Source of the DNA: Candidatus Heteroclostridium caecigallinarum | GTDB lineage: Bacteria > Bacillota > Clostridia > Christensenellales > CAG-314 | Direction: 5' to 3' | Assembly: GCA_904419725.1 (NCBI GenBank) | Contig: CAJFSP010000004.1 | Span: forward strand, 1,769-65,768 | Length of the DNA stretch: 64,000 nt | Shown: in pieces, positions 18,664-53,123 of the stretch | How the letters are laid out: each line of letters begins with the position of its first letter | Numbering within the stretch: position 1 is the stretch's first letter | Position numbers and translations under genes: made by a program | The notes under the pieces: model-generated | Told to the model about the DNA's origin: nothing | What the model saw: the letters and a program-made list of their open reading frames with translations, nothing else | Databases searched by the model: none

Positions 18664-18741
18664 TTTTGCTATTGACAAGGCGATATATTAGTGATATCGT
18701 TGAAAGGCAATCAAAATACGACAACAAGGAGAGAGGGAGAG

Positions 18742-21114
18742 ATGTACAGAGTAGTCAAAAGAGACGGTCAGAAAGTGGATTTCGACATAAGCAAAATCAG
18801 TCAGGCGATTACAAAGGCGTTTGAGGCGCAGAATAAGGAATATCACCCGAGCGTGATAGACCTCATCGCGCTCAAAGTCACCGCCGATTTCGAAAATAAA
18901 ATCAAAGACGGTTTCATCGCCGTGGAAGACATTCAGGACAGCGTCGAGCAGGTGCTGATTCAGGCGGGTTATGCCGACATCGCCAAGGCGTATATACTTT
19001 ACAGAAAAAACAGGGAAAAAATCCGCAACATGAAGTCCACCATTCTGGACTACAAAGAAATCGTGAACAGTTACGTCAAGGCGCAGGACTGGCGCGTAAA
19101 GGAAAACGCTACCGTTACTTATTCGGTGGGCGGTCTTATCCTGTCCAACAGCGGCGCAATCACCGCCAACTACTGGCTGTCGGAAATTTACGATGAGGAA
19201 ATTGCCAACGCCCACCGCAACGCCGACATCCACATCCACGACCTGTCCATGCTGACGGGCTACTGCGCGGGCTGGTCTCTCAAACAACTCATTCAGGAAG
19301 GTCTGGGCGGCATCCCGGGCAAAATCACTTCCGCCCCGGCGAAACATCTTGCCACGCTGTGCAACCAGATGGTCAACTTTTTGGGCATCATGCAAAACGA
19401 GTGGGCGGGCGCGCAGGCTTTCTCTTCCTTCGACACATATCTCGCGCCGTTCGTCAAGACGGACAACCTTACTTACGAAGAAGTCAAAAAGTGCGTGGAA
19501 TCCTTTATATACGGCGTGAACACTCCTAGCCGCTGGGGCACGCAGTCGCCTTTCTCCAACATCACGCTGGACTGGACCGTGCCAAACGACCTTGCCGAAC
19601 TCAACGCGATTGTCGGCGGCAAAGAGATGGACTTCAAGTACAAAGACTGCCAGAAAGAAATGGATATGGTCAACAAAGCCTTTATCGAAGTCATGATTGA
19701 AGGCGACGCCAACGGCAGGGGCTTCCAGTATCCTATCCCTACTTATTCCATCACCAAGGATTTCGACTGGTCGGAAACGGAAAACAACCGTCTGCTGTTT
19801 GAAATGACCGCCAAATACGGCACGCCTTATTTCTCCAACTATATCAACAGCGACATGCAGCCTAGCGACGTCAGGAGCATGTGCTGCCGTCTGCGTCTCG
19901 ACCTCAGGGAACTGCGCAAAAAATCCGGCGGCTTCTTCGGCAGCGGCGAAAGTACCGGCTCGGTGGGCGTTGTCACCATCAATATGCCAAGGATAGCCTA
20001 CCTCGCCAAGGACGAAGCCGACTTTTACAGAAGACTCGACAAACTCATGGATATCTCGGCGCGTTCGCTCAAAGTGAAACGCACCATCATCACCAAACTG
20101 CTGGACGAAGGGCTTTATCCTTACACCAAGAGATATCTGGGCACCTTCAACAACCATTTCTCGACAATCGGGCTGGTGGGCATGAACGAAGCGGGGCTCA
20201 ACGCCAAATGGCTGCGCAAAGACCTGACCCACAAAGAAACGCAGGAATTTACCCGCAACGTGCTTAACCACATGAGGGAAAGACTCTCGGACTATCAGGA
20301 GCAGTACGGCGACCTGTATAACCTTGAAGCGACGCCTGCCGAATCCACGGCTTACCGCCTCGCCAAACACGACGTGGCGAAGTACCCTGACATCATCACC
20401 GCGGCGGAGGGCAGCGGCACGCCTTATTACACCAACAGCTCGCACCTGCCTGTAAGTTTCACCGACGACGTGTTTGCCGCGCTGGACATTCAGGACAAAT
20501 TGCAGACGCTTTACACGTCGGGCACGGTGTTCCACACCTTCCTTGGCGAAAAACTGCCTGACTGGAGAGCGGCGGCAAACCTGGTCAGAACCATCGCCGA
20601 AAATTACGAACTGCCTTACTACACCATTTCGCCGACATACTCCGTCTGCAAAGACCACGGCTATCTCGCCGGCGAACAGTACACCTGCCCGATTTGCGGC
20701 GGCAAGACGGAAGTCAACAGCCGCATTACGGGGTATTACAGACCGGTGCAGAACTGGAACGACGGCAAAGCGCAGGAGTTTAAGGACAGAAAAGAATACA
20801 ACGTCATGACAAGCAAACTGACGCACAAAAAGAACGCGGCGGCGAAAATCGACGTCAAAAACTTTGACATGAACGACGGCACCGCCAAACAGATTTTGCT
20901 GTTTACCGCAAAAAACTGCCCTAACTGCAAACTCGCCAAAAACTTCTTGAATGAAGTCGGCATTAAATACAGAGATATAGACGCCGAAGAAAATGTCGCG
21001 CTTGCCGAAAAATACGGCGTGGAACTGGCGCCTACCATGGTGGTCGTGAGCGGCGACAAAACGCAAAAAGTCTCCAACGCTTCGGAAATAAGGAAGTTTG
21101 TGGAAAACAGATAA
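18742..21114 (+). CDS. nrdD: Class III ribonucleoside-triphosphate reductase with N-terminal ATP-cone and C-terminal glutaredoxin-like domain
   Basis: VVKRDG ATP-cone, IHIHDL, SMCCRL, RITGYYR glycyl-radical loop, C-terminal CPNC...APT. Confidence 0.95.
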   Translation: MYRVVKRDGQKVDFDISKISQAITKAFEAQNKEYHPSVIDLIALKVTADFENKIKDGFIAVEDIQDSVEQVLIQAGYADIAKAYILYRKNREKIRNMKSTILDYKEIVNSYVKAQDWRVKENATVTYSVGGLILSNSGAITANYWLSEIYDEEIANAHRNADIHIHDLSMLTGYCAGWSLKQLIQEGLGGIPGKITSAPAKHLATLCNQMVNFLGIMQNEWAGAQAFSSFDTYLAPFVKTDNLTYEEVKKCVESFIYGVNTPSRWGTQSPFSNITLDWTVPNDLAELNAIVGGKEMDFKYKDCQKEMDMVNKAFIEVMIEGDANGRGFQYPIPTYSITKDFDWSETENNRLLFEMTAKYGTPYFSNYINSDMQPSDVRSMCCRLRLDLRELRKKSGGFFGSGESTGSVGVVTINMPRIAYLAKDEADFYRRLDKLMDISARSLKVKRTIITKLLDEGLYPYTKRYLGTFNNHFSTIGLVGMNEAGLNAKWLRKDLTHKETQEFTRNVLNHMRERLSDYQEQYGDLYNLEATPAESTAYRLAKHDVAKYPDIITAAEGSGTPYYTNSSHLPVSFTDDVFAALDIQDKLQTLYTSGTVFHTFLGEKLPDWRAAANLVRTIAENYELPYYTISPTYSVCKDHGYLAGEQYTCPICGGKTEVNSRITGYYRPVQNWNDGKAQEFKDRKEYNVMTSKLTHKKNAAAKIDVKNFDMNDGTAKQILLFTAKNCPNCKLAKNFLNEVGIKYRDIDAEENVALAEKYGVELAPTMVVVSGDKTQKVSNASEIRKFVENR

Positions 21115-21592: not shown

Positions 21593-22732
21593 TCAGGCGG
21601 AAGTCATTTCTTTTATGGCGGTTACCGCCGCCGCCACGTCGTCCGCCGTGTTGAAAAAGCCGAAAGAGAAGCGCACCGTGCCTTGCGGAAAAGTGCCCAG
21701 CGCTTTGTGCGCCAGCGGGGCGCAGTGCAGGCCGCTTCTGACCTTGATGTCGTAGCGGCTGTCGAGAATATACGCCGCTTCGCCGTTGTCGATATTGACG
21801 AAGTCCACCGAGGTCACGGCGCATCTTTCGGGGTTTGCCGTGCCCGCCAGTCTTATGCCGTCCACGCCTTTCAGGGCGTCTTCAAACGCCGCGCGCAGGG
21901 CGTTTTCGTGCCGCCTGATATTGTCGATGCCGCGGGCTTTGAGAAAGGCGAGAGAGGCGTTCAGCGACGCTATGCCCGGCAGATTGAGCGTGCCCGCCTC
22001 GAACTTGTCGGGCAGCACGTCGGGCATAGAGGTCAGGTGCGAAAAACTGCCCGTGCCGCCGTGGATGAGCGGCTTCATGAGCCGCGCCGCGCGTTCGGAC
22101 AGAACCATTCCGCCGATACCTTGCAGCGCCATAAGCCCCTTGTGGCCGGCGAAACACAGCGCGTCGATATTGTCTCTGACGACGTCGATGTCGATGACGC
22201 CGCCGGTCTGGGCGCAGTCCACGATAAACAGCGCGCCGTTTTCACGGCACATTCTGCCGATTTCGCTTATGGGATTCACGCTGCCGCACACATTGGAGGC
22301 GTGGGTCAGCACCACGGCTTTCGGCCGCCGCGAAATTTTTTCTTCGGCGTCGGCGAGATTCATCACGCCGCCGTCGCAGTTTATATAGTCAACGGCGGCG
22401 CCGCTCGCGGCGAGAGAGGAGAGAGGGCGCAGCACGGCGTTGTGTTCCATGACGGAAGTAACCACGCCGTCACCGCTTTTAATAAGCCCGAAAACCGCCG
22501 TATTGATTGCCTGGGTGACGCCGCCCGTGAAAACCACGTTTCTGCCGTCTTTCGCGCCGAAAAACTCAGCGAGAAGTTCCCTTGTGTCAAAGACTGTTTC
22601 TTCGGCGTGGAGAGCGGCGCCGTACGACGCCCTGTTGACATTGAAACAACTTGTTTCTATAAAGTTTTTTACATATTCCGCCACACCCGGCGCTTTTGGA
22701 AAAGAGGTGCTGGCGTTGTCGAGATAAATCAT
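21593..22732 (-). CDS. Cysteine desulfurase / selenocysteine lyase-like class V PLP enzyme
   Basis: IYLDNAST, EHN, DCAQ, AGHK (PLP Lys), RSGLHCAP. Confidence 0.9.
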   Translation of the reverse strand: MIYLDNASTSFPKAPGVAEYVKNFIETSCFNVNRASYGAALHAEETVFDTRELLAEFFGAKDGRNVVFTGGVTQAINTAVFGLIKSGDGVVTSVMEHNAVLRPLSSLAASGAAVDYINCDGGVMNLADAEEKISRRPKAVVLTHASNVCGSVNPISEIGRMCRENGALFIVDCAQTGGVIDIDVVRDNIDALCFAGHKGLMALQGIGGMVLSERAARLMKPLIHGGTGSFSHLTSMPDVLPDKFEAGTLNLPGIASLNASLAFLKARGIDNIRRHENALRAAFEDALKGVDGIRLAGTANPERCAVTSVDFVNIDNGEAAYILDSRYDIKVRSGLHCAPLAHKALGTFPQGTVRFSFGFFNTADDVAAAVTAIKEMTSA

Positions 22733-22797
22733 AATTTCCTTGAAAGGCAAAAACAACGCGGACAAAATTTCGTCCGCGGTGCCTTTGTCACAGTGAT

Positions 22798-23826
22798 TCA
22801 GTAAACGATGATGTTGGCGTCTTTTCTGGGCTGCACTTCGCCCACCACGCAGGAAGGCATTTCCAGGTCGCCGAGAATTTTCATGAGTTCGGCGGCGTCT
22901 TCCTTAGGGACGCTGAGCAGCATGCCGCCCGATGTCTGCGGGTCAAGCAAAATTTCCTGCATAGGGGCGGATACGTTTTCGAAGCGCACCTTGTCCGTCA
23001 GGAATTTGCGGTTCTTCTGGCCGCCGCCCGTGGTAAGAAATTCTTCCGCAAGCCTGTGCGCGCCCGGGATGTATTTCACGGCGCCGCTTTCCACCGCGAT
23101 TGTGTATTCGTCGGTGGTCATTTCGTTCAGGTGACCCAAAAAGCCGAAGCCCGTTACGTCGGTGCCCGCGTGCAGACGGAATTTGCTGGCCGCCTCAAAG
23201 GCGTATTTGTTGAGCGTCTGCATGCTTTTCAGCGCCATCTGATAGTCTTCCTCGGCGACTTCGCCGTATTTATACGCCGCTGTGACCATGCCCACGCCGA
23301 GAGGCTTGGTGAGAATAATCACGTCGCCGATTTTGCAGGTGTTGTTGCGCATGTATTTGTCCGGATGCACGACGCCTGTTACCGAAAGGCCGTATTTAGT
23401 TTCCCTGTCGTTTATGGAGTGGCCGCCGCAGAGCACGCCGCCCGCTTCCTGAACCTTTTCGGCGCCGCCGCGGAGGATTTCCGCCAGCACCGCGGTGTCG
23501 TCTTCTTCAGGGAAGCAAACGATGTTGAGCGCCACTTTGACGCTGCCGCCCATGGCGTAAACGTCGCTGAGGGCGTTTGCCGCCGCGATTTTGCCGAATA
23601 CATACGGGTCTTCCACCATAGGGGTGAAAAAGTCCAGCGTCTGTATGATGGCTATGTCGTCGCTGAGTTTGTAAACGGCTCCGTCGTCCGACGTGTCAAA
23701 ACCCACAAGCAGGTCAGGGTCGTTGAAGACGGGAATTTTTTTGACCACTTCTTTGAGCATTCCCGGGGGCAGTTTTGCCATGCAGCCGCCGCAGGCGGGC
23801 AGTTTCATGATTTTTTTGATGTCCAT
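22798..23826 (-). CDS. selD: Selenophosphate synthetase (Cys form)
   Basis: GGCMAK, DDGAV, DFFTP, ANALSDVYAMGG, GGHS, TDVTGFG, DPQTSGG. Confidence 0.96.
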   Translation of the reverse strand: MDIKKIMKLPACGGCMAKLPPGMLKEVVKKIPVFNDPDLLVGFDTSDDGAVYKLSDDIAIIQTLDFFTPMVEDPYVFGKIAAANALSDVYAMGGSVKVALNIVCFPEEDDTAVLAEILRGGAEKVQEAGGVLCGGHSINDRETKYGLSVTGVVHPDKYMRNNTCKIGDVIILTKPLGVGMVTAAYKYGEVAEEDYQMALKSMQTLNKYAFEAASKFRLHAGTDVTGFGFLGHLNEMTTDEYTIAVESGAVKYIPGAHRLAEEFLTTGGGQKNRKFLTDKVRFENVSAPMQEILLDPQTSGGMLLSVPKEDAAELMKILGDLEMPSCVVGEVQPRKDANIIVY

Positions 23827-23853: not shown

Positions 23854-24096
23854 TTATACGTCCAGCGCGGTATAGTCGTCTTTTCCGTTGACCAGAAAGC
23901 AACCTTCCATATCTTCGTGTTCCGCTTCCGCCAGAAAGGCGACGTCTTCCGAGGAAAACTTCACGCATGTGCCGCAAGACGAAGATAGTTTGCGGGGAAC
24001 AGGCATCTGCGCCGATTGTATCCCGCGTTTTTTACAGAATTTGTCAAATTTAAGCGCCCCGTAATGAGTGTAAAAAGTAGCCACGTATTCTTTCAT
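23854..24096 (-). CDS. DUF3343 protein
   Basis: ATFYTHY.A and PVPRKLSSSCG motifs. Confidence 0.85.
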   Translation of the reverse strand: MKEYVATFYTHYGALKFDKFCKKRGIQSAQMPVPRKLSSSCGTCVKFSSEDVAFLAEAEHEDMEGCFLVNGKDDYTALDV

Positions 24097-24097
24097 T

Positions 24098-24313
24098 TCA
24101 GCCTTTGGTAAGTTCCAGAGTATAGTTGTCTTCGTTGTCGCCTATGACGTTCACGGCGTAGCCGTTTGTTTCGGCGTACCGTTTGCAGTTGTTCAGGGCG
24201 TTCTGGCTGCTGAGCAGCAGAGTGATTTTGCCCTCGGTGTCCTGTTTGATTGCCTTTTTAAGCATCAAAAGCGGTTCCGGACAGGAAAGTCCGCGTGCGT
24301 CTACGTTTGTCAT
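24098..24313 (-). CDS. TusA/SirA family sulfur/selenium carrier
   Basis: VDARGLSCPEP motif. Confidence 0.9.
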   Translation of the reverse strand: MTNVDARGLSCPEPLLMLKKAIKQDTEGKITLLLSSQNALNNCKRYAETNGYAVNVIGDNEDNYTLELTKG

Positions 24314-24415: not shown

Positions 24416-25504
24416 TTACGATACTTTTTTGCGGTTGCAGAACCCTATGACCAGCAGCAGCACTATGCACACGCCGATGGCAATCATGCCGGCGTCGGTC
24501 GCGCCGCCTTCCGCCGTCGCGCTGGCGGCCGCGCTTGCCAGACCCCAGTTGTGCGCCAGCGCCGCGCCCGCTATCATGCCCAGCACGGCGATTGTCGAGT
24601 CGCTGTTGCCGCTGCCCGACAGCACCAGCTGTCTGAACGGACATCCGCCGAGGAACACCGAACCGAGTCCCACGACAGCCATGCCCAAAAAGTTCCACAA
24701 AAAGTCGGAGTGGGCGACAGGCTGGTCGTTAAAGCTGAAATGCAGTTTGCCGGCAAAGGCGTTGCATATGATGGTGGTGAGTATCACGGCGACAAACATG
24801 TAAACCATGTGGAACTGCCTGAACATCATGCCGTCGCGGATGCCGCCCACAAAGCAGGCTCTGGTGCGCTGGCCGATGGCGCCAACGATAAGGCCGCCGA
24901 TGAGAGCGGCGTAGATAGGGGCTCTCATTGAAGCGGGACCCGTTTCGCTGAATACCAGCAGGCTAGGCACGCCGATGAGTATAATCAGCAAAAACGCCGA
25001 TGAAGCCGGAGCAACCGCCGCTTCGAGTTTAGGCAGGTCGTAAGAACGGCGGAGCGTGAAACCGAGGTTGAGAAACACGACGCCCACGGCGATGCCGCCG
25101 ATAAAGCCAAGCAGGGCGATTATGGCGTTGAGGTCGCCGCCGCCGATGCGCAGAACCATTCTGAGCGGGCAGCCGAGGAACACCAGCGCGCCAATCATGA
25201 CTATCATGCCCAGCAGAAATCTGGTGACCGGAGCCGAGCCGCCGGTAGGCTTGAAGTCTTTTCTGAGAAGAGAAATGGCAAACGCGCCCAGCACGATGCC
25301 GATGATTTCAGGTCTGGCGTACTGAACGACGGCCGCCGAGTGGAGCTTCAGGGCACCTGCCGTGTCGCGCAGGAAGCAGGCTATGCAGAAGCCCATGTTT
25401 GCAGGGTTGCCCATGAGCGTGAGCACAAACGCCACCACGCCGATGACAATGCCGGCGCCGATATACATCCAATTATTTTTGAAGAAGTTTTTTACTTTGT
25501 TCAC
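24416..25504 (-). CDS. yedE: YedE family putative selenium/sulfur transporter
   Basis: GNPANMGFCIACFLRD, GCPLR, CFVGG, GGCPFR; GTG start 8 nt after AGGAGA. Confidence 0.9.
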   Translation of the reverse strand: MNKVKNFFKNNWMYIGAGIVIGVVAFVLTLMGNPANMGFCIACFLRDTAGALKLHSAAVVQYARPEIIGIVLGAFAISLLRKDFKPTGGSAPVTRFLLGMIVMIGALVFLGCPLRMVLRIGGGDLNAIIALLGFIGGIAVGVVFLNLGFTLRRSYDLPKLEAAVAPASSAFLLIILIGVPSLLVFSETGPASMRAPIYAALIGGLIVGAIGQRTRACFVGGIRDGMMFRQFHMVYMFVAVILTTIICNAFAGKLHFSFNDQPVAHSDFLWNFLGMAVVGLGSVFLGGCPFRQLVLSGSGNSDSTIAVLGMIAGAALAHNWGLASAAASATAEGGATDAGMIAIGVCIVLLLVIGFCNRKKVS

Positions 25505-25554
25505 AGTACATATCTCCTGTTTTTTCTTTGGATACGCTTTCGCGCGGAACGGCA

Positions 25555-25835
25555 AAAAAAAGACCCGTGAAAAAAATTCATAGGTTCCTCAGGCGATATG
25601 TTGCCGCGCGAAAAGCACGGCGCCAAGTATGTATAAGCCGACTGATGGCATACGTCGCCCAAAGGAACAACATCGCCGCTTAGGAGCCGCGCGTACGCGC
25701 AACGGCGACGGACATATTTGCCGTCAGACGAGGACACACGAAAAAAATATAGGAGCGCACAAGCCGAAACTTGTTATTTTGTCCGTATGTCGGTATCTCT
25801 TTGTTTATTATATCGCAATCATATTTTTTTTGCAA
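25555..25835 (-). promoter_or_regulatory. Promoter and long structured 5' leader of the yedE-selD operon (candidate attenuator)
   Basis: TTGCAA-17-TATAAT (25835-25807); several hairpins and a terminator-like hairpin plus U-run at 25555-25587. Confidence 0.55.
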
Positions 25836-25843
25836 GACAAAAT

Positions 25844-25872
25844 AAAAAAAGACCGACTTTGAAATCGGTCTT
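25844..25872 (-). terminator. Intrinsic terminator of the tRNA-Sec-like RNA
   Basis: AAGACCGATTTCAAAGTCGGTCTTTTTTT, 2 nt after the CCA end. Confidence 0.85.
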
Positions 25873-25874
25873 AA

Positions 25875-25965
25875 TGGCGGGACCGTGAAGGAATCGAACC
25901 TCCCCGGGCAGCTCCTAACTTCCCATCAGGCAAGCCTGAATACACACCAGCATATATCCGGTCCC
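25875..25965 (-). ncRNA. tRNA-Sec-like RNA lacking an anticodon (CUUG tetraloop replaces the anticodon loop)
   Basis: 8/5 acceptor/T fold, 6-bp D stem with UGGU loop, long variable arm, GGTTCGATTCC, G73-CCA; anticodon arm is TCAGG-CTTG-CCTGA; adjacent to selA. Confidence 0.88.
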
Positions 25966-25978
25966 ACGCCGCCCATAT

Positions 25979-26007
25979 AAGATAACACAAAGGGCGGATT
26001 TTTTCAA
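25979..26007 (-). promoter_or_regulatory. Promoter of the tRNA-Sec-like RNA
   Basis: TTGAAA-17-TATCTT with extended TG, 13 nt upstream of G1. Confidence 0.65.
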
Positions 26008-26047
26008 GTCTTTTGGCAATCGTTTCGGGCGTTCGCGCCGGTAAAAT

Positions 26048-27439
26048 TCAGCCGAACACTTTGCCGACGGCTTTTGCCACTTCTTTGTACTGGCTGTCGA
26101 ATATCGTGCGCGGGTCAAGCAGAAGTTTGTCCTGATGTATTCTGGCGATAACAGGGGTTTCGCATTCGCGCAGACGTTTTTCCGCTTCCGCCGCCGAAAT
26201 CGCGACGGGGGTTATCTGCACGACGAAAGACGGCAGCATTTCGCCCGGGGCGGACCCGCCGCCCACCTGCGACTCGGACGCTTTGACCGCCGCCGTGAAC
26301 TTGTCGGGCATGGAAGGCAGCGCCGCCAGCAGTTTTTTGGCACGCACCCGCAAATCGGTTTTGTCCGCCGCGAGATTGGCAAGGGTAGGTATTTCTTTCA
26401 TTGCTCTGTCGCCGTCGAGGTATATGCGCAGCGTCGCTTCCAGCGCGGCGAGAGTAAGTTTGTCGATACGCACCACCCTTGCGAACTGGTGCTTTTTCAT
26501 CATGTCGATGTATTTTTTCTTGCCCGCCAGTATGCCCGCCTGCGGGCCGCCCAGCAGTTTGTCGCCGCTGAAACACACCACGTCGGCGCCCGCCGCGAGG
26601 GCGTCTTTCGCCGAAGGCTCGTTCTGTATGCCGAGCAGGGCGCCGTCCACCATAAGGCCGCTGCCCACGTCGTAAAGCACCGGCAGACCCGCCGCTTTGC
26701 CTATGGCTACCATTTCTTCTATTTTGACGTCGTCGCAAAAGCCGACGAGTTTGAAGTTGCTGGTGTGCACTTTGAGCAGCGCCGCCGTGTTTTCGTTTAC
26801 GGCGTTTTTATAGTCGCCCGGGTTGGTTTTGTTTGTGGTGCCCACTTCTTTGAGACGCGCGCCGCTCATGCTCATTATTTCAGGCACGCGGAAAGAACCG
26901 CCGATTTCCACAAGTTCGCCGCGCGAAACGATGATTTCCCTGTCTTTGCCGACGGCCGCCAGCATAAGCATGACGGCGGCGGCGTTGTTGTTGACCGCCA
27001 TTGCCGCTTCGGCGCCGGTGAGTTTGCAGATGAGAGACTCGACGTGGTCGTGGCGGCTGCCGCGCCCGCCTTCGTCAAGCGAGTATTCCAGCGTGTTGTA
27101 CTGCATCGCCACCTGTTTGATGTTTTCGGCGACCGACGGCGGAAGAACCGCTCTGCCGAGATTGGTGTGCAGCACCACGCCCGTGGCGTTGATTACCGCG
27201 CGCAGATTGTGTCTGCCCGCTTCCCGGGCAGCCCTGACCGCCATGTCGGCGGCGTATCCGACGGTGACTTCGGCTGTGATTTTGCCGGAAAGCACGTCTT
27301 TTCTTATTGAGTCGAGAACGTTTCTCACGCACTCGGCGAGAGTGGCGTAAGACACGTTTTTGAGTCCGTCGTCATGACGGGCTGCGTTGATTACGTCATC
27401 GACGCGGGGAATATTGCGTAAAATCTCTTGCTTTTCCAT
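26048..27439 (-). CDS. selA: L-seryl-tRNA(Sec) selenium transferase
   Basis: N-terminal LRNIP..D domain, VINATGVVLHTNLGRA, RGELVEIGGSFR, FSGDKLLGGPQAG. Confidence 0.96.
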   Translation of the reverse strand: MEKQEILRNIPRVDDVINAARHDDGLKNVSYATLAECVRNVLDSIRKDVLSGKITAEVTVGYAADMAVRAAREAGRHNLRAVINATGVVLHTNLGRAVLPPSVAENIKQVAMQYNTLEYSLDEGGRGSRHDHVESLICKLTGAEAAMAVNNNAAAVMLMLAAVGKDREIIVSRGELVEIGGSFRVPEIMSMSGARLKEVGTTNKTNPGDYKNAVNENTAALLKVHTSNFKLVGFCDDVKIEEMVAIGKAAGLPVLYDVGSGLMVDGALLGIQNEPSAKDALAAGADVVCFSGDKLLGGPQAGILAGKKKYIDMMKKHQFARVVRIDKLTLAALEATLRIYLDGDRAMKEIPTLANLAADKTDLRVRAKKLLAALPSMPDKFTAAVKASESQVGGGSAPGEMLPSFVVQITPVAISAAEAEKRLRECETPVIARIHQDKLLLDPRTIFDSQYKEVAKAVGKVFG

Positions 27440-27589
27440 AGTCTTCTCCGTATTGTTTTATACTAACTAATATTAACACAATCGAAAGACTATTTCAACG
27501 GTTTTTTCCCTTTGCGCCGCCGCCCGCGGAAATTTGTTATTGACATTATTTTTTCTCCGCCGTACAATTACTTTGATTTGAGGAGTTTT

Positions 27590-28699
27590 ATGATTTATCT
27601 TGACAACGCCGCGACGACGCTTCCCAAACCCAAAGAAGTCGCCGAAGCGGTAACCGACGCCATGAACAACTGCGGCAACCCGGCCAGAGGCTCACACGAC
27701 GCTTCCCTCGCGGGGCTGCGCGTAATGCTGAGGGCGAGAATGGCCATTGCCGACCTGTTTCACGAGCCCGACCCGATGAACGTGGCTTTCACGCTCAACG
27801 CCACCGCCGCCCTCAACACGGCGATAGGAGGAATAAAGGGGCACATAATCATGACGGCGGCGGAGCACAACAGCGTGCTGCGCCCCGTGTTCCGCAGGGG
27901 AAACTACACCGTAGTGCCGCTTGACGGCAAGGGCAGGCTGGATGTCGGCGATATCGCCGCGGCAATGCGCCCCGATACCGAAGCGGTGGTCATGTGCCAC
28001 GCTTCCAACCTGACGGGCAACGTGTTTGACATCGAGGCGGTAAGCGGCCTGTGCGCCCGGAAAGGCGTGAGGTTTATTCTCGACGCGGCGCAGACGGCGG
28101 GACTTATAGACATAGATATGACAAAACTGCGGCTGTCGGCGCTGTGTTTCAGCGGGCACAAGTCGCTTTACGGGCCGCAGGGTACGGGCGGCATCTGTCT
28201 GGGGCAGGGGTTCAGACCCGAACCTCTGGCGGTGGGCGGCAGCGGCAGCGAGTCCTTTTCGCCGACGCACCCGACCGTTATGCCCGACGCTCTCGAAGCG
28301 GGCACGCAGAACGCGCACGGAATAGCGGGACTGCTGGCAGGAGTGGAATATATAAAAAATCTCGGCGGCAAGGCGTTTTCCGTTTCCGACGGGCACGCCG
28401 GAAGGTTTATAAAAGAAATGAAGGGCGTGGAGGGCGTTACCCTTTACGGCGATGTCGACGCCGCTTTGCGCACGCCCGTCGTGGCGCTCAACGTGCGCGG
28501 CAGGGACAGCGGCGATATAGCCGCCCTGCTTTGGGACGACTACGGAATAGCGGTGAGAGCGGGGGCGCACTGCGCGCCGCTGATGCACAAAACGCTGGGT
28601 ACTGAAAAAATCGGGGCGGTCAGGTTTTCTTTTTCGCATTTCAACACCGATGAAGAAGTTGACGCTGCAATCGCCGCCGTGAAAGAATTGGCTAAATAA
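27590..28699 (+). CDS. Second cysteine desulfurase / selenocysteine lyase-like enzyme
   Basis: IYLDNAATT, EHNS, DAAQ, SGHK, RAGAHCAP; TTGACA-17-TACAAT promoter at 27540-27568. Confidence 0.9.
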   Translation: MIYLDNAATTLPKPKEVAEAVTDAMNNCGNPARGSHDASLAGLRVMLRARMAIADLFHEPDPMNVAFTLNATAALNTAIGGIKGHIIMTAAEHNSVLRPVFRRGNYTVVPLDGKGRLDVGDIAAAMRPDTEAVVMCHASNLTGNVFDIEAVSGLCARKGVRFILDAAQTAGLIDIDMTKLRLSALCFSGHKSLYGPQGTGGICLGQGFRPEPLAVGGSGSESFSPTHPTVMPDALEAGTQNAHGIAGLLAGVEYIKNLGGKAFSVSDGHAGRFIKEMKGVEGVTLYGDVDAALRTPVVALNVRGRDSGDIAALLWDDYGIAVRAGAHCAPLMHKTLGTEKIGAVRFSFSHFNTDEEVDAAIAAVKELAK

Positions 28700-28711: not shown

Positions 28712-29323
28712 ATGAAAGTTATCGACGCAATGGGGCTGCTTTGCCCCGTACCGGTAATTATGGCGAGAAACGCCATAAGGGAATTTCCGCAGGAAGGCGG
28801 CGTTGTCCAGGTGCTGGTTGACAATGAAGTCGCCACCGAAAACCTCAAAAAAATGGCGGACAGCAAGGGCTACGGCTATGAAATGGAAAAAGTTGCCGAC
28901 AGGAATTACAAGGTGACCATAACCGTGGGCGAAGGTCAGGCGCAGGAAGAAAAACCGCAGGCGGCGGCTCCGTCGCAGGCAAGGGGCGAGGGTCTTGTGG
29001 TGGCCATCGGGCAGAACCAGATGGGACACGGAAGCGAAGAACTTGGCAAAATACTCATCAAAGGTTTTATCTTTTCGCTTTCGCAACTTGACGTGCCGCC
29101 TAAATCCGTCGTGTTTTTCAATTCCGGCGTGAAACTCACGCTGAAAGACGCCAACACGCTGGACGACCTCAAAGCGCTGGAAGCCAAAGGCTGCAAAATC
29201 AAAGTTTGCGGCACCTGCACCGATTTCTTCAAAGTCAAGGACGACGTGTCCGTCGGCGAAATAGTCAATATGTACGATATCGTCGACACAATGAGCGGCG
29301 CGCAGACGGTAATCAATATCTGA
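28712..29323 (+). CDS. yedF: Selenium metabolism protein YedF (TusA plus DsrE-like domains)
   Basis: IDAMGLLCPVPV, MGHGSEELG, FNSGV, CGTC. Confidence 0.9.
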   Translation: MKVIDAMGLLCPVPVIMARNAIREFPQEGGVVQVLVDNEVATENLKKMADSKGYGYEMEKVADRNYKVTITVGEGQAQEEKPQAAAPSQARGEGLVVAIGQNQMGHGSEELGKILIKGFIFSLSQLDVPPKSVVFFNSGVKLTLKDANTLDDLKALEAKGCKIKVCGTCTDFFKVKDDVSVGEIVNMYDIVDTMSGAQTVINI

Positions 29324-29567: not shown

Positions 29568-29818
29568 AAGAAAAAGACGGTTCAGCCGTCTTTTTTCATG
29601 TCATGTCTCATTATCACGTCAATAATATCCCCCAAGGTATTCGGCATGACGTCGGGGCGGCGGCGTCCGCCAATTTATTTTGTGCAGGACGGAACTTACA
29701 CCAGGATTCAGTAAAAGAAAAAGACGGCTCAGCCGTCTTTTTTCATGTCATGTCTCATTATCGCGCCGACGATATTCCCGAACGCTTTCAGCATGTCGTC
29801 CAGGCGGCAGTGTTCGCC
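29525..29818. repeat. 147-bp tandem duplication spanning two convergent gene ends and their terminator
   Basis: 29525-29671 vs 29672-29818; first 91 nt differ at one base, last 56 nt at about 17. Confidence 0.85.
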
Positions 29819-30370
29819 GCCGGGGTAGAGAAGCCGCGAGTTGAGTTCCAGCTGCAGGGAGAACAGCCCCGTCTTTCTGTTGACGTACGCCGTGACCCTG
29901 TTGTCGGTTTTGCCGGCATAAGGGAAATCTTCCGTCACGGTAAAGCCGCCGTTTATGAATACGTTTTTGATTTCGCCGTACAGGTCTTCGTTGCCTTTGA
30001 TGTTTTTGCCGCCGTTTATAAGCGGATTGACGTCGGTGGGGCGGGAAGGGGCCAGTTCGTGCAGGTCTATGAGATATCTGACGCCGTTTTCCGTCATGTA
30101 CGCCGCCAGCGCTTTTTTATACGGCGAGTCGGCGCTGTAATTGGGGTCGTCGCCGTCTTCGCGCGCCTTGACCATCCAATGAGTGCTTTTCATGTCGCCG
30201 AGCGCCATGGCGATGACGCCCGCTCCGCGTTCCGCCTCTTTGACGCGCCCCTCGCGGAAGTGCCGGTATGTGTGCGGAGCGCTTATGATTATCGGCAGCG
30301 TGCCGCTTTTTATGACGTAAGGCTCGGGGTGTTCTTCGTCGAAAAAACCGAAATATTTTTTACAGTCCAT
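29729..30370 (-). CDS. N-formylglutamate amidohydrolase-like zinc hydrolase
   Basis: ISAPH...E...IDLH...LQLELN pattern. Confidence 0.65.
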   Translation of the reverse strand: MDCKKYFGFFDEEHPEPYVIKSGTLPIIISAPHTYRHFREGRVKEAERGAGVIAMALGDMKSTHWMVKAREDGDDPNYSADSPYKKALAAYMTENGVRYLIDLHELAPSRPTDVNPLINGGKNIKGNEDLYGEIKNVFINGGFTVTEDFPYAGKTDNRVTAYVNRKTGLFSLQLELNSRLLYPGGEHCRLDDMLKAFGNIVGAIMRHDMKKDG

Positions 30371-31543
30371 TTATTTCACCTTGCCGCGTTCTTCCGTCAT
30401 GACGATATACAGCAGCAGCGCCAGCGCCGCCGCTCCGCTGACGATTTTCCACACGAGCGGCCAGCCCGCGAATATGCTGAAAAACTGCAGCATTTCGGCG
30501 GAAATCAGCAGCGCGAAAACCGACAGGACGGAAAGCAATATTTTTTTGCGGAACAAAAAGGCGCAGTTGCGGCGCACTTTTACGTTCACGCCCAGGTCGT
30601 TTATATCCATCAGACGGCGCAGGCGCCACGGTATGCCCACAAGTTCGTTTGGGTGTTCGGTGAGATATGCTCTCTCCCGCTCGTAACCCGCCGCTTTGCC
30701 GTCAGTCAGATATTCCCGCTCTTTTTCTTTTTCGTCGAACGCCCACACTTTGACGCTTTTTATTCTGCCTTTATATTCGAGATACACGTTGTCGCCTTCG
30801 TTTATGCCCAGTACCGTCATTGCCTGGCCTGTCAGGCGTATGACGTTTTTGTCCTCGTCGTTGTCGCTGGGGCGGAATGTTTTTAACTGCGCTTCCGCCT
30901 TGCCCACGAAAAATCCGCATATGCCGTTGACCAGCCGCGTGAAAAAGCCTTTTACCCTTTCGACGGCGGACAGTTCGCGCCAGGCGGCGGGGTAAATCCG
31001 CAAATTCTGGTTTTTTGTGGTTACCGCGTTTGCTTTTTCGTCAAGAAGCAGAAACTTGCGCACCAGCCTTGACATTTTTATGCCCGTGCCCACGCCGTTT
31101 TTGTCTTCGAGCGACGGGTCGACGGAGACGTCGGACGGCGAAAACACGAAAACTTCGCCGTTGAGTTTGTTGACCAGCGCGAAACGCCGCCCCGGCCACG
31201 ATTTCATTTTGTCAAAGGCGTTCGGCCCGACCGTTATCAGCGGTTGTCTGCGTTTGCTGTAAGCGGTGCGGAAGACTTTGTCAAAACACAGGCACGGCAG
31301 GGCGGTTATTTCCGCTTCGCGCCGTTTGCCGAGAACACCTTCGTGCACTTTTTTGGTGGTGCGGAATGTGCCGCGCAGGGCGTCGTCGTTTACCCGCACG
31401 GCGCAGATATAACCCGCGTCGCCGCTTTGCACCAGCACTCTGTCGTAATTGCCCACGCCCAGCGCTTCGGCGTCGGCTGAACATATTTCCACGCGGTTGC
31501 CTGGGAGCAGCGCGGCGCATTTTTCAGTGAATTCGAACAGCAT
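30371..31543 (-). CDS. Hypothetical protein with double-psi beta-barrel-like repeats and two C-terminal TM helices
   Basis: AEALGVGNYDRV and MTVLGINEGDNVYL resemble CDC48-N/DPBB half-repeats; GAGGTG RBS; TTGACA-17-CATAAT promoter. Confidence 0.55.
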   Translation of the reverse strand: MLFEFTEKCAALLPGNRVEICSADAEALGVGNYDRVLVQSGDAGYICAVRVNDDALRGTFRTTKKVHEGVLGKRREAEITALPCLCFDKVFRTAYSKRRQPLITVGPNAFDKMKSWPGRRFALVNKLNGEVFVFSPSDVSVDPSLEDKNGVGTGIKMSRLVRKFLLLDEKANAVTTKNQNLRIYPAAWRELSAVERVKGFFTRLVNGICGFFVGKAEAQLKTFRPSDNDEDKNVIRLTGQAMTVLGINEGDNVYLEYKGRIKSVKVWAFDEKEKEREYLTDGKAAGYERERAYLTEHPNELVGIPWRLRRLMDINDLGVNVKVRRNCAFLFRKKILLSVLSVFALLISAEMLQFFSIFAGWPLVWKIVSGAAALALLLYIVMTEERGKVK

Positions 31544-32702: not shown

Positions 32703-33065
32703 TTATACGATTGCTACACGCAAGTGTCAATCGCGTCACCGTATGTGAGAGCTGGCGTAAGCAAAAAAAGAGACACTGTGTTTACAGTGCCGTAATGGTG
32801 GTGGGGAGTACAGGGCTCGTAAGGAGCGGAGCGACGGAATACTCGCGCGGTGTTTTGCGTGGCGTTCAGGCAAACGGAGGAGAAAGGGTATTGCTATATC
32901 AAATCGGCATTGCGTTTGCTCGTGGCGGCGCCGACAAGTCGGCTGGCTTATACGATTGCTACACGCAAGTGTCAATCGCGTCACCGCAGGTGAGAGCTGG
33001 CGTAAGCAAAAAAAAGAGACACTGTGTTTACAGTGCCGTAATGGTGGTGGGGAGTACAGGGCTCG
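32703..33065. repeat. Direct repeat including the 3' 21 nt of tRNA-Val and its downstream terminator
   Basis: 32703-32819 vs 32948-33065 nearly identical. Confidence 0.85.
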
Positions 33066-33120
33066 AACCTGTGACCCCCTGCTTGTAAGGCAGATGCTCT
33101 CCCAGCTGAGCTAACTCCCC
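33045..33120 (-). tRNA. tRNA-Val(TAC)
   Basis: 76-nt cloverleaf, CTTACAA anticodon loop, encoded CCA. Confidence 0.96.
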
Positions 33121-33125
33121 GATAA

Positions 33126-33200
33126 TGGTGACCCCTGCGAGAATCGAACTCGCGTTACCGCCGTGAAAGGGCGATGTCTTGACCGCTTGACCAAGGGGCC
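33126..33200 (-). tRNA. tRNA-Glu(TTC)
   Basis: 75-nt cloverleaf, CTTTCAC loop, CCA. Confidence 0.96.
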
Positions 33201-33206
33201 GTTTTG

Positions 33207-33284
33207 TGGTAGCGGCGGTCGGATTCGAACCAACGACCTGCCGGGTATGAACCGGCCGCTATAGACCAACTAAGCTACGCCGCC
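33207..33284 (-). tRNA. tRNA-Met(CAT), elongator type
   Basis: GGCGGCG acceptor, TTCATAC loop, CCA. Confidence 0.9.
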
Positions 33285-33294
33285 ATACAAAAAA

Positions 33295-33371
<77 letters not shown>

Positions 33372-33387
33372 ATATCGATGCTTTGAT

Positions 33388-52720: not shown

Positions 52721-52869
52721 CGCCGCCACTGACCGGGGAAAAGCGAAAAATGTTAATTTACAACAGGTTTGCCTCAGCTGATAAAATCTATTGTAAATTA
52801 ACAATGAAAAATCGCTTTACAAGGCGGCGGCGAAGTGCTATACTTTGCTTACATTTGAAAAAACCCCTA

Positions 52870-53123
52870 AATGCGTTGACGAAAGACACGGGGCGTTTAT
52901 TCAACGGAGTCAGAGAACTGTCGGTCGGTGCAAGACAGTCTCCGCGTAAACGGCTTATCCCTTTCGAAGCAGGGCGGCAGAACACAAAAGTAAGTCGCTC
53001 CGGTTGACACCGTAATATGTCTTGGGCTTGTGTGAGCCTCAGAGCGGACGCTTTAAGCGTCAATTTGGGTGGTACCGCGGATTATTCGATTCGTCCCAAA
53101 CATGCGTTTGGGGCGTTTTTTTA
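52870..53123 (+). promoter_or_regulatory. T-box riboswitch leader
   Basis: AGAGA (52912), GGTG, AGTA, T-box AATTTGGGTGGTACCGCGG (53062-53080), terminator plus T-run; promoter TTTACA-17-TATACT upstream. Confidence 0.9.

What the first reader, a model, noticed from the sequence alone, without database searches (positions are those of the whole stretch)
25875..25965. tRNA-Sec-like RNA with no anticodon: the loop is replaced by a G(CUUG)C tetraloop
Seen: the minus strand reads GGGACCGG AT ATATGC TGGT GTGTAT TCAGG CTTG CCTGA TGGGAAGTTAGGAGCTGCCCG G GGAGG TTCGATT CCTTC ACGGTCCC G CCA. It has an 8-position acceptor stem (7 Watson-Crick pairs plus G.A), a 6-bp D stem with a 4-nt loop, a long variable arm, a 5-bp T stem, G73 and an encoded CCA. 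The 7-nt CTTCAAA loop expected in tRNA-Sec is absent; a perfect 5-bp stem is capped by CUUG closed by G-C. It has its own promoter and terminator and sits directly downstream of selA. Known: SerRS recognises the variable arm and acceptor, not the anticodon; SelA recognises the long D arm; G(CUUG)C is a classic stable tetraloop. Inference: this is a maintained non-decoding carrier that can be serylated and converted by SelA but cannot enter translation. tRNA finders would probably call it a pseudogene or miss it.
Basis: partly seen in the sequence, partly recalled or inferred. Interest (0 to 1): 0.95.

Follow-up and report, generated by a model that had tools for sequence, protein, structure and literature searches.

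The report
Selenocysteine tRNA relative without an anticodon
A group of small-genome gut bacteria keeps the enzyme that makes selenocysteine and a copy of its special tRNA whose codon-reading loop has been replaced by a short cap, so selenocysteine is probably made on an RNA carrier for some use other than protein synthesis.

Summary
Window 25875..25965 (-) is a tRNA-Sec-type RNA (Rfam RF01852, 49.2 bits, cut-off 47) whose anticodon arm is UCAGG-CUUG-CCUGA. It has its own promoter-like site and terminator, 82 nt downstream of selA. It is not an assembly error: a separate metagenome contig and contigs from three public runs carry the 91 nt unchanged, while the flanks differ.

All 5 genomes of the genus have this RNA next to selA, and none has a 7-nt UCA loop. 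Their loops are CUUG, CUUG, GCAA, UUUUA and an 8-nt CUUUAAAA. So the conserved feature is loss of decoding, not the tetraloop itself. The rest of the tRNA is kept by compensatory changes: 8 of 25 pairs covary within the genus.

SelA is intact in all 5, keeps its tRNA-binding N-domain and catalytic residues, and has dN/dS of about 0.1. I found no selB, selU, yqeB/yqeC or molybdenum hydroxylase in any of the 5, and no GrdB or FdhA in the 3 tested. A relative has selA-selB-selC plus GrdB.

Best reading: a maintained, non-decoding Ser-to-Sec carrier for SelA. Charging, conversion and what then uses the selenocysteine are inferred or unknown. My literature searches found no description of it.

The parts
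25875..25965 (-). tRNA-Sec-derived RNA, 91 nt including G73 and CCA. Acceptor 5' 25965-25958; AU 25957-25956; D stem 25955-25950 with 25945-25940, loop UGGU 25949-25946; capped hairpin (see next part); variable arm 25924-25906; T arm 25903-25887; acceptor 3' 25886-25879; G73 25878; CCA 25877-25875.
   Evidence: Sequence. Rfam RF01852 49.2 bits. Own model R1 90.4 bits. Covariation. Identical in L050 and in contigs of 3 runs.
25926..25939 (-). Hairpin in place of the anticodon arm: stem UCAGG (25939-25935), loop CUUG (25934-25931), stem CCUGA (25930-25926). No 7-nt loop and no UCA.
   Evidence: Relatives carry other short caps with compensatory stem changes.
25979..26007 (-). Promoter-like site TTGAAA-17-TATCTT with TG extension, ending 13 nt before the RNA's first base.
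   Evidence: Promoter-like sites with a TG extension lie at the same place in G002, G003 and G004. These are consensus matches only.
25849..25872 (-). Intrinsic-terminator-like hairpin (10 pairs) followed by a T-run, starting 3 nt after CCA.
   Evidence: Equivalent terminators follow the RNA in G002 and G004 and, by eye, in G001. None in G003.
26048..27439 (-). [quoted passage not shown]
   Evidence: Pfam SelA 491 bits plus Se-cys_synth_N. TIGR00474 591 bits. Aligns to A. aeolicus SelA residues 4-447. Equivalents of R86, K285, R312 and R315 are kept. dN/dS about 0.1.
24416..25555 (-). YedE-family putative selenium transporter.
   Evidence: TIGR04112 460 bits.
24098..24313 (-). TusA/SirA-like small sulfur/selenium carrier (matches the N-terminal part of YedF).
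23854..24096 (-). Putative Se/S carrier protein (PF11823), 80 aa.
22798..23826 (-). selD, selenophosphate synthetase, Cys type (N-terminal ACGGCMAK, no in-frame stop).
   Evidence: TIGR00476 375 bits. Translation.
21593..22765 (-). Cysteine desulfurase family protein of the EF2568 type, similar to selenocysteine lyase SclA.
   Evidence: TIGR01977 418 bits (cut-off 377). NF040779 354 bits, below its cut-off of 525.
27512..28699 (+). Second EF2568/SclA-like cysteine desulfurase family protein, divergent from selA.
   Evidence: TIGR01977 373 bits, just under its cut-off of 377. The same gene sits beside selA in G002 and G003.
28712..29323 (+). YedF-type protein (TusA plus DsrE-like domains), 203 aa.
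   Evidence: Conserved next to the SclA-like gene in G002 and G003.

Best explanation
This is a tRNA-Sec (selC) descendant that no longer decodes. It is kept as a dedicated carrier RNA for the selenocysteine-synthesis enzymes.

The ancestor had a selA-selB-selC operon and a selenoprotein, glycine reductase. This genus lost selB and GrdB. It kept selD, the selenium uptake and carrier genes, selA, and the tRNA body.

Proposed steps:
1. The RNA is transcribed from its own promoter and ends in an encoded CCA.
2. The single SerRS charges it with serine, using the acceptor stem, G73 and the long variable arm.
3. The SelA decamer holds it by the 6-bp D arm and T loop and converts Ser to Sec with selenophosphate from SelD.
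4. With no anticodon loop and no SelB, the product cannot enter the ribosome. It must be used or released elsewhere.

What is shown: conservation, covariation, synteny, and absence of the decoding parts. What is inferred: charging and conversion. What is unknown: the acceptor or fate of the Sec. I found no known aminoacyl-tRNA transferase among those I searched for.
For: 1. All 5 genomes of the genus carry the RNA, found with my own covariance model (83-107 bits). The four whose flanks I read (G000, G002, G003, G004) have it just downstream of selA, and in G001 a near-complete selA frame lies upstream in the fetched locus. Their loops are CUUG, CUUG, GCAA, UUUUA and CUUUAAAA, never a 7-nt UCA loop.

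2. The body is under structural selection. Across 9 sequences, 93.3% of cells pair and 12 of 25 pairs change on both sides. The covariation score is 0.516, against 0.263 for shuffles (0 of 500 reach it) and 0.10-0.19 for slid controls. Within the genus alone, 8 of 25 pairs change on both sides and 23 of 25 pairs are paired in all five. The capped stem covaries too: C-G to U-A, and A-U to C-G or U-A.

3. Among strains, there are no changes in the 91 nt while the flanks vary.

4. SelA is intact in 5 of 5. It scores 591-602 bits against TIGR00474 in the three scanned. The N-terminal domain is present and the R86, K285, R312 and R315 equivalents are invariant. dN/dS is 0.113 for G001-G004 and 0.098 for G000-L050 (16 synonymous against 5 non-synonymous codon differences). 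Other pairs give 0.08-0.20 with saturated dS.

5. selB was not found in 5 of 5. It is present between selA and the canonical tRNA-Sec in G019 and beside the canonical tRNA-Sec in G032.

6. The other known consumers of selenophosphate were not found. selU, yqeB and yqeC: 0 of 3 genus genomes tested. Molybdenum hydroxylase domain: 0 of 5. That leaves SelA as the only known user of SelD's product.

7. GrdB is present in G019 and G032 but not in G000, G002 or G003.

8. [quoted passage not shown] The pattern of what is conserved here matches that.

9. There is one SerRS gene.
Against: - No direct evidence shows that the RNA is transcribed, processed or aminoacylated. The contigs from RNA libraries cover the locus but cannot show transcription, because DNA may be present in such libraries.
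- The size-fractionated RNA run X20 covered only 26036..26172, not the RNA gene.
- No consumer of a tRNA-bound Sec was identified. FemAB gave 0 of 5. The LanB/PEARL domain gave 0 of 5, but its control was silent everywhere, so that search says little.
- A pathway that makes Sec only to release it looks wasteful beside two SclA-like lyases, which would degrade free Sec.
- Folding energy is not better than shuffled sequence (z = -1.14 for G000), and the MFE of the G004 copy is not the cloverleaf.
- All genomes are assemblies 94-95% complete, so each single absence is soft.
- G002 keeps an 8-nt loop. By structure alone I cannot exclude some decoding there.
Confidence: 0.6

Rival explanations
1. 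The RNA is kept but is not a substrate. It binds SelA as a structural cofactor, a decoy or a regulator, for example helping a SelA that has taken on another reaction, or sensing serine or selenium status. No amino acid is carried.
For: - No downstream user of Sec-RNA was found.
- The RNA sits with selA under its own promoter.
- SelA keeps the N-terminal RNA-binding domain, which would also be needed for pure binding.
Against: - The acceptor stem, G73 and the encoded CCA are invariant or covary in all five. These are the parts needed for charging and for reaching the SelA active site.
- The SelA residues that bind PLP and the phosphate or selenophosphate site are invariant.
- SelD and selenium uptake genes are kept in the same cluster, yet no other selenophosphate user was found.
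Confidence: 0.15
2. It is an evolutionary relic. The Sec-decoding trait was lost (selB and glycine reductase deleted), and selA, selD and the damaged selC are non-functional leftovers that have not yet been removed.
For: - selB and GrdB were not found, while a relative in the same family has both.
- The anticodon loop has decayed in different ways in different species.
- The loop differs even between the closest pair.
Against: - The decay is confined to the loop. 23 of 25 body pairs stay paired in all five, and 8 have compensatory changes.
- SelA has diverged to 60-73% identity inside the genus yet stays full length with dN/dS of 0.08-0.20.
- Catalytic residues are invariant.
- The RNA's promoter-like site is kept in 4 of 4 copies examined.
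- These are small genomes (1.2-1.6 Mb), where dead genes are not expected to last. That last point rests on general knowledge.
Confidence: 0.08
3. The RNA still takes part in translation in an unorthodox way. Examples: entry into the ribosome without codon reading (as the tRNA-like part of tmRNA does), or, for the 8-nt loop of G002, reading of a stop or four-base codon.
For: - G002 retains CUUUAAAA, which is close to the canonical CUUCAAA.
- tmRNA shows that an anticodon-less aminoacyl-RNA can enter a ribosome (abstracts listed).
Against: - No SelB, and no extra EF-Tu-like factor beyond the usual translational GTPases among the selB-model hits.
- Four of five copies have 3-5-nt caps that cannot present an anticodon.
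- An ordinary tmRNA gene is present in G000.
- No partner comparable to SmpB is linked to the locus.
Confidence: 0.03
4. It is an assembly or binning artefact: a normal selC with a mis-assembled loop, or a selB that lies on an unbinned contig.
For: All the genomes are metagenome-type assemblies, 94-95% complete.
Against: - The identical 91 nt occur in an independent metagenome contig and in contigs of 3 runs from 2 studies.
- Five species show loop loss with different sequences.
- In contiguous sequence, the place that selB occupies in G019 is an 82-nt spacer here.
Confidence: 0.01

Closest known systems
Canonical bacterial tRNA-Sec (selC, Rfam RF01852) of the selA-selB-selC operon
   Same: - Same descent and body: 8-position acceptor, 5-bp T stem, 6-bp D stem with a 4-nt loop, long variable arm, G73.
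- Same position after selA.
- Relatives G019, G032, L042 and L043 have the canonical form, and it aligns column for column outside the anticodon arm.
   Different: - No 7-nt loop and no UCA anticodon.
- No selB in the genome, and no GrdB or FdhA found.
- ARAGORN calls the canonical relatives tRNA-SeC but none of the G000, G002 and G003 copies in the loci scanned. It also found nothing at the G000 copy in the window and whole genome.
selC* tRNA-Cys and allo-tRNAs (Mukai et al., Nucleic Acids Res 2017, PMC5389517; passages read)
   Same: They are tRNA-Sec-like RNAs with unusual features, found in anaerobes including Clostridia. They show that the tRNA-Sec scaffold can be re-used.
   Different: - Those RNAs keep a working anticodon (often one not specific for serine) and function in translation.
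- Per the passages read, genomes that carry selC* have the complete selA/B/C/D set.
- Here decoding is abolished and selB is missing.
Orphan SelA of Helicobacter pylori (Cravedi et al., Genome Biol Evol 2015, PMC4607533; passages read)
   Same: A SelA homologue kept after the Sec-decoding trait was lost.
   Different: - H. pylori SelA lost the N-terminal tRNA-binding domain, along with selB, selC and selD. The paper treats that loss as the hallmark of a changed function.
- Here the N-domain, a selC-derived RNA and selD are all kept.
- The paper states that SelA, SelB, SelC and SelD are present or absent together, or only SelD is present. This genus breaks that rule.
Aminoacyl-tRNAs used outside translation, and tRNA-dependent amino-acid synthesis. 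Examples: Staphylococcus cell-wall tRNA-Gly, Sep-tRNA to Cys-tRNA, Asp-tRNA-Asn amidation (all recalled, from no call); B. cereus tRNA-Other (PMC3399842, abstract only)
   Same: - The idea of a tRNA as a carrier on which an amino acid is made, or from which it is donated to something other than the ribosome.
- tRNA-Other is described as a pseudo-tRNA that does not function in translation.
   Different: As far as I recall, those tRNAs keep an anticodon loop. None is a tRNA-Sec derivative or is linked to selenium.
tRNA-like domain of tmRNA
   Same: An aminoacylated tRNA-like RNA without an anticodon (abstracts listed).
   Different: tmRNA has an mRNA module, pseudoknots and a partner protein, and is charged with alanine. 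G000 has an ordinary tmRNA elsewhere. This RNA is a simple five-arm cloverleaf.

Membership tests
Bacterial tRNA-Sec (selC) | 13-bp acceptor/T helix in 8/5 form, with G73 | tested here: met
   7 Watson-Crick pairs plus a G.A at position 8, a 5-bp T stem, G73 and CCA. The G.A is also present in the canonical relatives, 9 of 9 rows.
Bacterial tRNA-Sec (selC) | 6-bp D stem with a 4-nt loop, the SelA determinant | tested here: met
   AUAUGC-UGGU-GUGUAU. 100% of D-stem cells are paired across 9 sequences, with 3 pairs changed on both sides.
Bacterial tRNA-Sec (selC) | Long variable arm | tested here: met
   A 6-position stem with a conserved A.G and a 5-7-nt loop.
Bacterial tRNA-Sec (selC) | 7-nt anticodon loop with UCA | tested here: not met
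   The loop is CUUG here. 0 of 5 genus copies have a 7-nt UCA loop. All 18 other tRNA-Sec hits in the class and order samples (17 genomes; G032, already known, is not counted again) have UCA.
Bacterial tRNA-Sec (selC) | Score at or above the Rfam RF01852 gathering threshold | tested here: met
   49.2 bits against 47. G003 scores 48.0 and G002 58.7. The G001 and G004 copies were not reported by the Rfam searches and needed my own model.
Bacterial Sec-decoding trait (selA, selB, selC, selD plus selenoprotein genes) | SelB elongation factor present | tested here: not met
   TIGR00475: 0 of 5 above cut-off, and the best hit is an EF-Tu-sized GTPase at 183-190 bits. PF09107: 0 of 5. Positive controls G019 and G032 score 354 and 385 bits.
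Bacterial Sec-decoding trait (selA, selB, selC, selD plus selenoprotein genes) | At least one selenoprotein gene with in-frame UGA | tested here: inconclusive
   GrdB and FdhA were not found in G000, G002 or G003. SelD is the Cys form. A coding-potential scan for in-frame TGA could not separate gene junctions from read-through. Other selenoprotein families were not searched.
Bacterial Sec-decoding trait (selA, selB, selC, selD plus selenoprotein genes) | SelA with N-terminal tRNA-binding domain, and SelD | tested here: met
Non-decoding aminoacyl carrier tRNAs (used outside the ribosome) | Aminoacylated in vivo but excluded from translation | not testable with these tools
   Exclusion from decoding follows from the missing anticodon loop and missing SelB. 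Aminoacylation needs wet-lab assays.
Non-decoding aminoacyl carrier tRNAs (used outside the ribosome) | A dedicated transferase or acceptor that uses the aminoacyl-RNA | tested here: not met
   FemAB 0 of 5. Lant_dehydr_N 0 of 5, but its control was silent, so that result is weak. Nothing of this kind is in the gene cluster.

The most novel reading that the evidence does not exclude
These bacteria have a selenium-utilisation trait that has not been described. Selenocysteine is built by SerRS and SelA on a dedicated anticodon-less carrier RNA and is then handed to a non-ribosomal acceptor. That acceptor could be a small molecule, a cofactor or a protein side chain, or the SclA-like, YedF, TusA or Se-carrier proteins of the cluster. 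It would be the first natural case of a tRNA-Sec that evolved into a pure biosynthetic scaffold. It would also be the first use of SelA outside the genetic code.
Probability: 0.45. Interest if true: 0.95.

Novelty: new variant of a known kind. Interest (0 to 1): 0.86.

Why it matters
The textbook rule is that SelA, SelB, SelC and SelD travel together and exist to put selenocysteine into proteins. PMC4607533 restates it. This genus breaks that rule. It has discarded the two decoding parts, SelB and the anticodon. It has kept, under clear purifying selection, everything needed to make Sec on an RNA.

Three consequences would follow if this reading is right:
- There is a use of tRNA-bound selenocysteine outside translation. 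The acceptor is unknown and could be looked for directly.
- Evolution has run its own deletion experiment on tRNA-Sec. It shows which parts SerRS and SelA need: acceptor stem, D arm, T arm and variable arm.
- tRNA finders and selenium-trait surveys that demand a UCA anticodon, or that score selC by standard models, will miss such systems. ARAGORN missed every copy presented to it: the G000 copy, and the G002 and G003 copies. The Rfam model as run here missed 2 of 5.

Tried and rejected
- Assembly artefact: rejected.
- A second, normal tRNA-Sec elsewhere in G000: none found. The other Rfam hits are ordinary tRNAs, and ARAGORN lists 44 tRNAs with none reading UCA.
- Rfam hits at 45-48 bits in other families: these are tRNA-Ser(UGA).
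- An in-frame stop between frames 30371..31543 and 29729..30370 (-) looked like a possible selenoprotein. The stop is TAA followed by ATG, so these are two genes.
- A genome-wide scan for TGA flanked by coding-like sequence gave 1918 candidates dominated by gene junctions. It could not discriminate, so I dropped it.
- Order-wide exact pattern search: 401 genomes, only G000 and G002 hit. The pattern is too strict to find diverged copies.
- The metagenome pattern scan found only one contig, a near-identical strain.
- FemAB and LanB-type transferases: not found. The LanB control rang nowhere, so that search is uninformative.
- Run X20 (size-fractionated RNA) had no contig over the RNA gene. Contigs cannot show absence.
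- Folding z-scores are not significant.
- Literature: five searches and passages from six papers gave no description of an anticodon-less tRNA-Sec, nor of a SelA-plus-selC system without SelB.

Full report
**1. What is in the sequence**

Rfam's tRNA-Sec model matches 25879..25965 at 49.2 bits. The gathering score is 47, and E = 7e-07 for the window. In the printed alignment every arm of tRNA-Sec is matched except the anticodon loop, where five model positions are deleted.

The arm is UCAGG-CUUG-CCUGA: five Watson-Crick pairs closed by a 4-nt loop. ARAGORN does not report the gene, either in the window or in the whole genome. The minimum-energy fold is the expected five-arm cloverleaf. Its energy is not better than shuffled sequence (z = -1.14), so structure has to be argued from comparison.

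A promoter-like site (TTGAAA-17-TATCTT, TG extension) ends 13 nt before the first base. A 10-pair hairpin with a T-run starts 3 nt after CCA. selA ends 82 nt upstream.

**2. Not an artefact**

An independent metagenome contig (L050, 23.7 kb) carries the same 91 nt, with several differences in the flanks. Its SelA is 99.1% identical.

Contigs from three public runs span 25700..26300. Two are from RNA libraries of one study and one is a DNA run of another study. None shows a difference inside the RNA gene. They have substitutions or indels at 25757, 25766, 25823, 25843, 26010, 26033, 26040 and further on. Because these are contigs, they show presence and sequence, not transcription.

**3. The gene neighbourhood is a selenium locus**

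On the minus strand:
- selA, 26048..27439 (TIGR00474, 591 bits)
- the RNA
- a YedE-family selenium transporter, 24416..25555
- a TusA-like carrier, 24098..24313
- a PF11823 Se/S carrier, 23854..24096
- selD, 22798..23826 (Cys type)
- an EF2568/SclA-like cysteine desulfurase, 21593..22765

Divergent from selA are a second SclA-like gene (27512..28699) and a YedF-type gene (28712..29323).

G002 and G003 have the same core: YedF and SclA-like on one side, selA-RNA-selD on the other.

**4. The whole genus has the RNA, and none can decode**

The genome (G000) is 1.28 Mb in 19 contigs and 94.6% complete. It has no other tRNA-Sec.

The Rfam model found copies in G002 and G003 of the same genus. A covariance model I built (R1) also found them in G001 and G004. 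L040, fetched through SelA similarity, lies in a genome with the same contig and coordinates as G004.

The arms are:

| Genome | 5' stem | Loop | 3' stem |
|---|---|---|---|
| G000 | UCAGG | CUUG | CCUGA |
| G004 | UCUG | CUUG | CAGA |
| G001 | UCUG | UUUUA (or 5 pairs with a UUU loop) | CAGA |
| G003 | UUCGG | GCAA | CCGAU |
| G002 | UCCGG | CUUUAAAA | CCGGU |

G002's loop is the canonical CUUCAAA-A with one substitution in the anticodon and the loss of the last 5' stem base, which gives an 8-nt loop. So the conserved feature is the absence of a working anticodon loop. It is not a particular tetraloop. G001 and G004 are identical at 77 of 78 positions outside the arm yet have different loops.

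In a SelA tree, G002+G003 (support 82/93) and G001+G004 (100/100) are pairs, and G000 stands apart. The order among them and G019 is unresolved. G002 keeps a near-ancestral loop while its sister G003 has GCAA. The loop was therefore shortened at least twice independently.

**5. The rest of the RNA is under selection**

I aligned nine sequences to the model: five from the genus and four canonical relatives.
- 93.3% of cells form standard pairs.
- 12 of 25 pairs change on both sides.
- The covariation score is 0.516. Column shuffles give 0.263 (0 of 500 reach the observed value). Slid partners give 0.10-0.19.

Within the genus alone, 8 of 25 pairs change on both sides and 23 of 25 are paired in all five. 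The two exceptions are a G.A at acceptor position 8 and an A.G in the variable stem, both invariant. The capped stem also covaries. G73 and CCA are invariant.

Promoter-like sites with a TG extension precede the RNA in G000, G002, G003 and G004.

**6. SelA is functional by every sequence criterion**

- It aligns over residues 6-459 to A. aeolicus SelA (3W1H), including the N-terminal domain.
- The equivalents of R86, K285, R312 and R315 are invariant in all five genomes and in L050. I counted the positions from the alignment. Their roles are recalled from the structural work of Itoh and co-workers; I read only the E. coli equivalent, K295 as the PLP lysine (PMC11047290).
- Identities within the genus are 60-73% (84% for G001-G004).
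- dN/dS is 0.113 for G001-G004 (dS 0.97) and 0.098 for G000-L050 (16 synonymous, 5 non-synonymous codons). Other pairs with a defined estimate give 0.08-0.20. For six pairs dS was too saturated to estimate.

**7. The decoding half of the trait is gone**

- The selB model gives 0 of 5 above cut-off. The best hits are EF-Tu-sized proteins at 183-190 bits. G019 and G032 give 354 and 385 bits.
- The SelB winged-helix domain gives 0 of 5.
- In G019 the order is selA, selB, tRNA-Sec(UCA). Here the same place is an 82-nt spacer.
- GrdB is present in G019 and G032, close to their sel genes, but not in G000, G002 or G003.
- FdhA was found in none of the five genomes tested.
- The other known users of selenophosphate were not found. 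selU, yqeB and yqeC gave 0 of the 3 genus genomes tested. The molybdenum-hydroxylase domain gave 0 of 5.

SelA is thus the only known consumer of SelD's product in these genomes.

**8. How restricted is it?**

- Family: 82 genomes searched. Real tRNA-Sec hits occur only in this genus and in G019.
- Order: 4 of 150 other genomes have tRNA-Sec.
- Class: 14 of 150 other genomes have it, with 15 hits.
- The 18 hits in these two samples that ARAGORN scanned are 97-98 nt with UCA. The 19th, G032, was already shown to be UCA.

In what I searched, the anticodon-less form occurs only in this genus, in 5 of 5 genomes. These are samples, not censuses.

**9. Mechanism**

As stated in PMC11047290 (passages), SerRS recognises the acceptor and long variable arm without regard to the anticodon. 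[quoted passage not shown]

What is conserved here is exactly that set, and what is free to change is exactly what only the ribosome and SelB need. The simplest reading is that the RNA is still serylated and converted to Sec-RNA, and that the product is used outside translation.

That reading is inferred. I found no transferase or acceptor. The presence of two SclA-like enzymes leaves it open whether Sec is released and its selenium passed on, or whether these enzymes act upstream to feed SelD.

**10. Comparison with the literature**

- The allo-tRNA and selC* work describes tRNA-Sec-like RNAs that keep anticodons and act in translation (PMC5389517, passages).
- The H. pylori study describes an orphan SelA that lost its tRNA-binding domain together with selB, selC and selD. 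It states the all-or-none rule for the four genes (PMC4607533, passages).
- Passages from the Secmarker paper and from a 2026 review of prokaryotic selenoproteomes mention nothing like this RNA.
- Five full-text searches found no description.
- Supplements were closed. The 'incomplete selenocysteine systems' of PMC5389517 Fig. S13 could not be checked.

**11. Verdict**

The RNA is a maintained, non-decoding descendant of tRNA-Sec.
- Confidence that it is functional and non-decoding: about 0.85.
- Confidence that it is a Ser-to-Sec carrier for SelA: about 0.6.

I class it as a new variant of a known kind. If the non-ribosomal use is confirmed, it would be a new selenium-utilisation trait.

Noticed in passing
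L011:1501-1596 (G002): The G002 copy keeps an 8-nt loop, CUUUAAAA. This is one substitution and one base loss away from the canonical CUUCAAA loop, in a genome where selB was not found. It may be an intermediate state of anticodon loss, or a loop with some residual reading ability.
   Followed up: partly
window 18691..21114 (+): The anaerobic ribonucleotide reductase NrdD (ATP-cone plus NRDD) carries a C-terminal thioredoxin/glutaredoxin-like domain at residues 728-799. It is an 807-aa fusion next to the selenium cluster.
   Followed up: no
window 52867..53101 (+): T-box leader, 104.6 bits against a gathering score of 93.
   Followed up: no
window 33045..33372 (-): Cluster of four tRNA genes: Met, Met, Glu, Val.
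   Followed up: no
G000:C5:51258-51625: ARAGORN reported no tmRNA in the genome, but Rfam's tmRNA model finds one at 133 bits. So ARAGORN has false negatives in this genome for more than the Sec-like RNA.
   Followed up: yes
window 29729..31543 (-): Two adjacent genes in one frame, separated by TAA-ATG. The first (390 aa) has only weak hits to double-psi beta-barrel domains (Molydop_binding, CDC48_N) and a hydrophobic C-terminus. Neither has a clear family.
   Followed up: partly
window 25807..25835 (-): A second promoter-like site (TTGCAA-17-TATAAT) lies just after the RNA's terminator and ahead of yedE. An equivalent TTGCAA-17-TATAAT follows the RNA in G002.
   Followed up: no
L047:9978-9994 (G003): In G003 a G+C-rich hairpin sits between the promoter-like site and the RNA. 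No terminator follows the RNA, and selD starts 135 nt downstream. There the RNA may be co-transcribed with selD.
   Followed up: no
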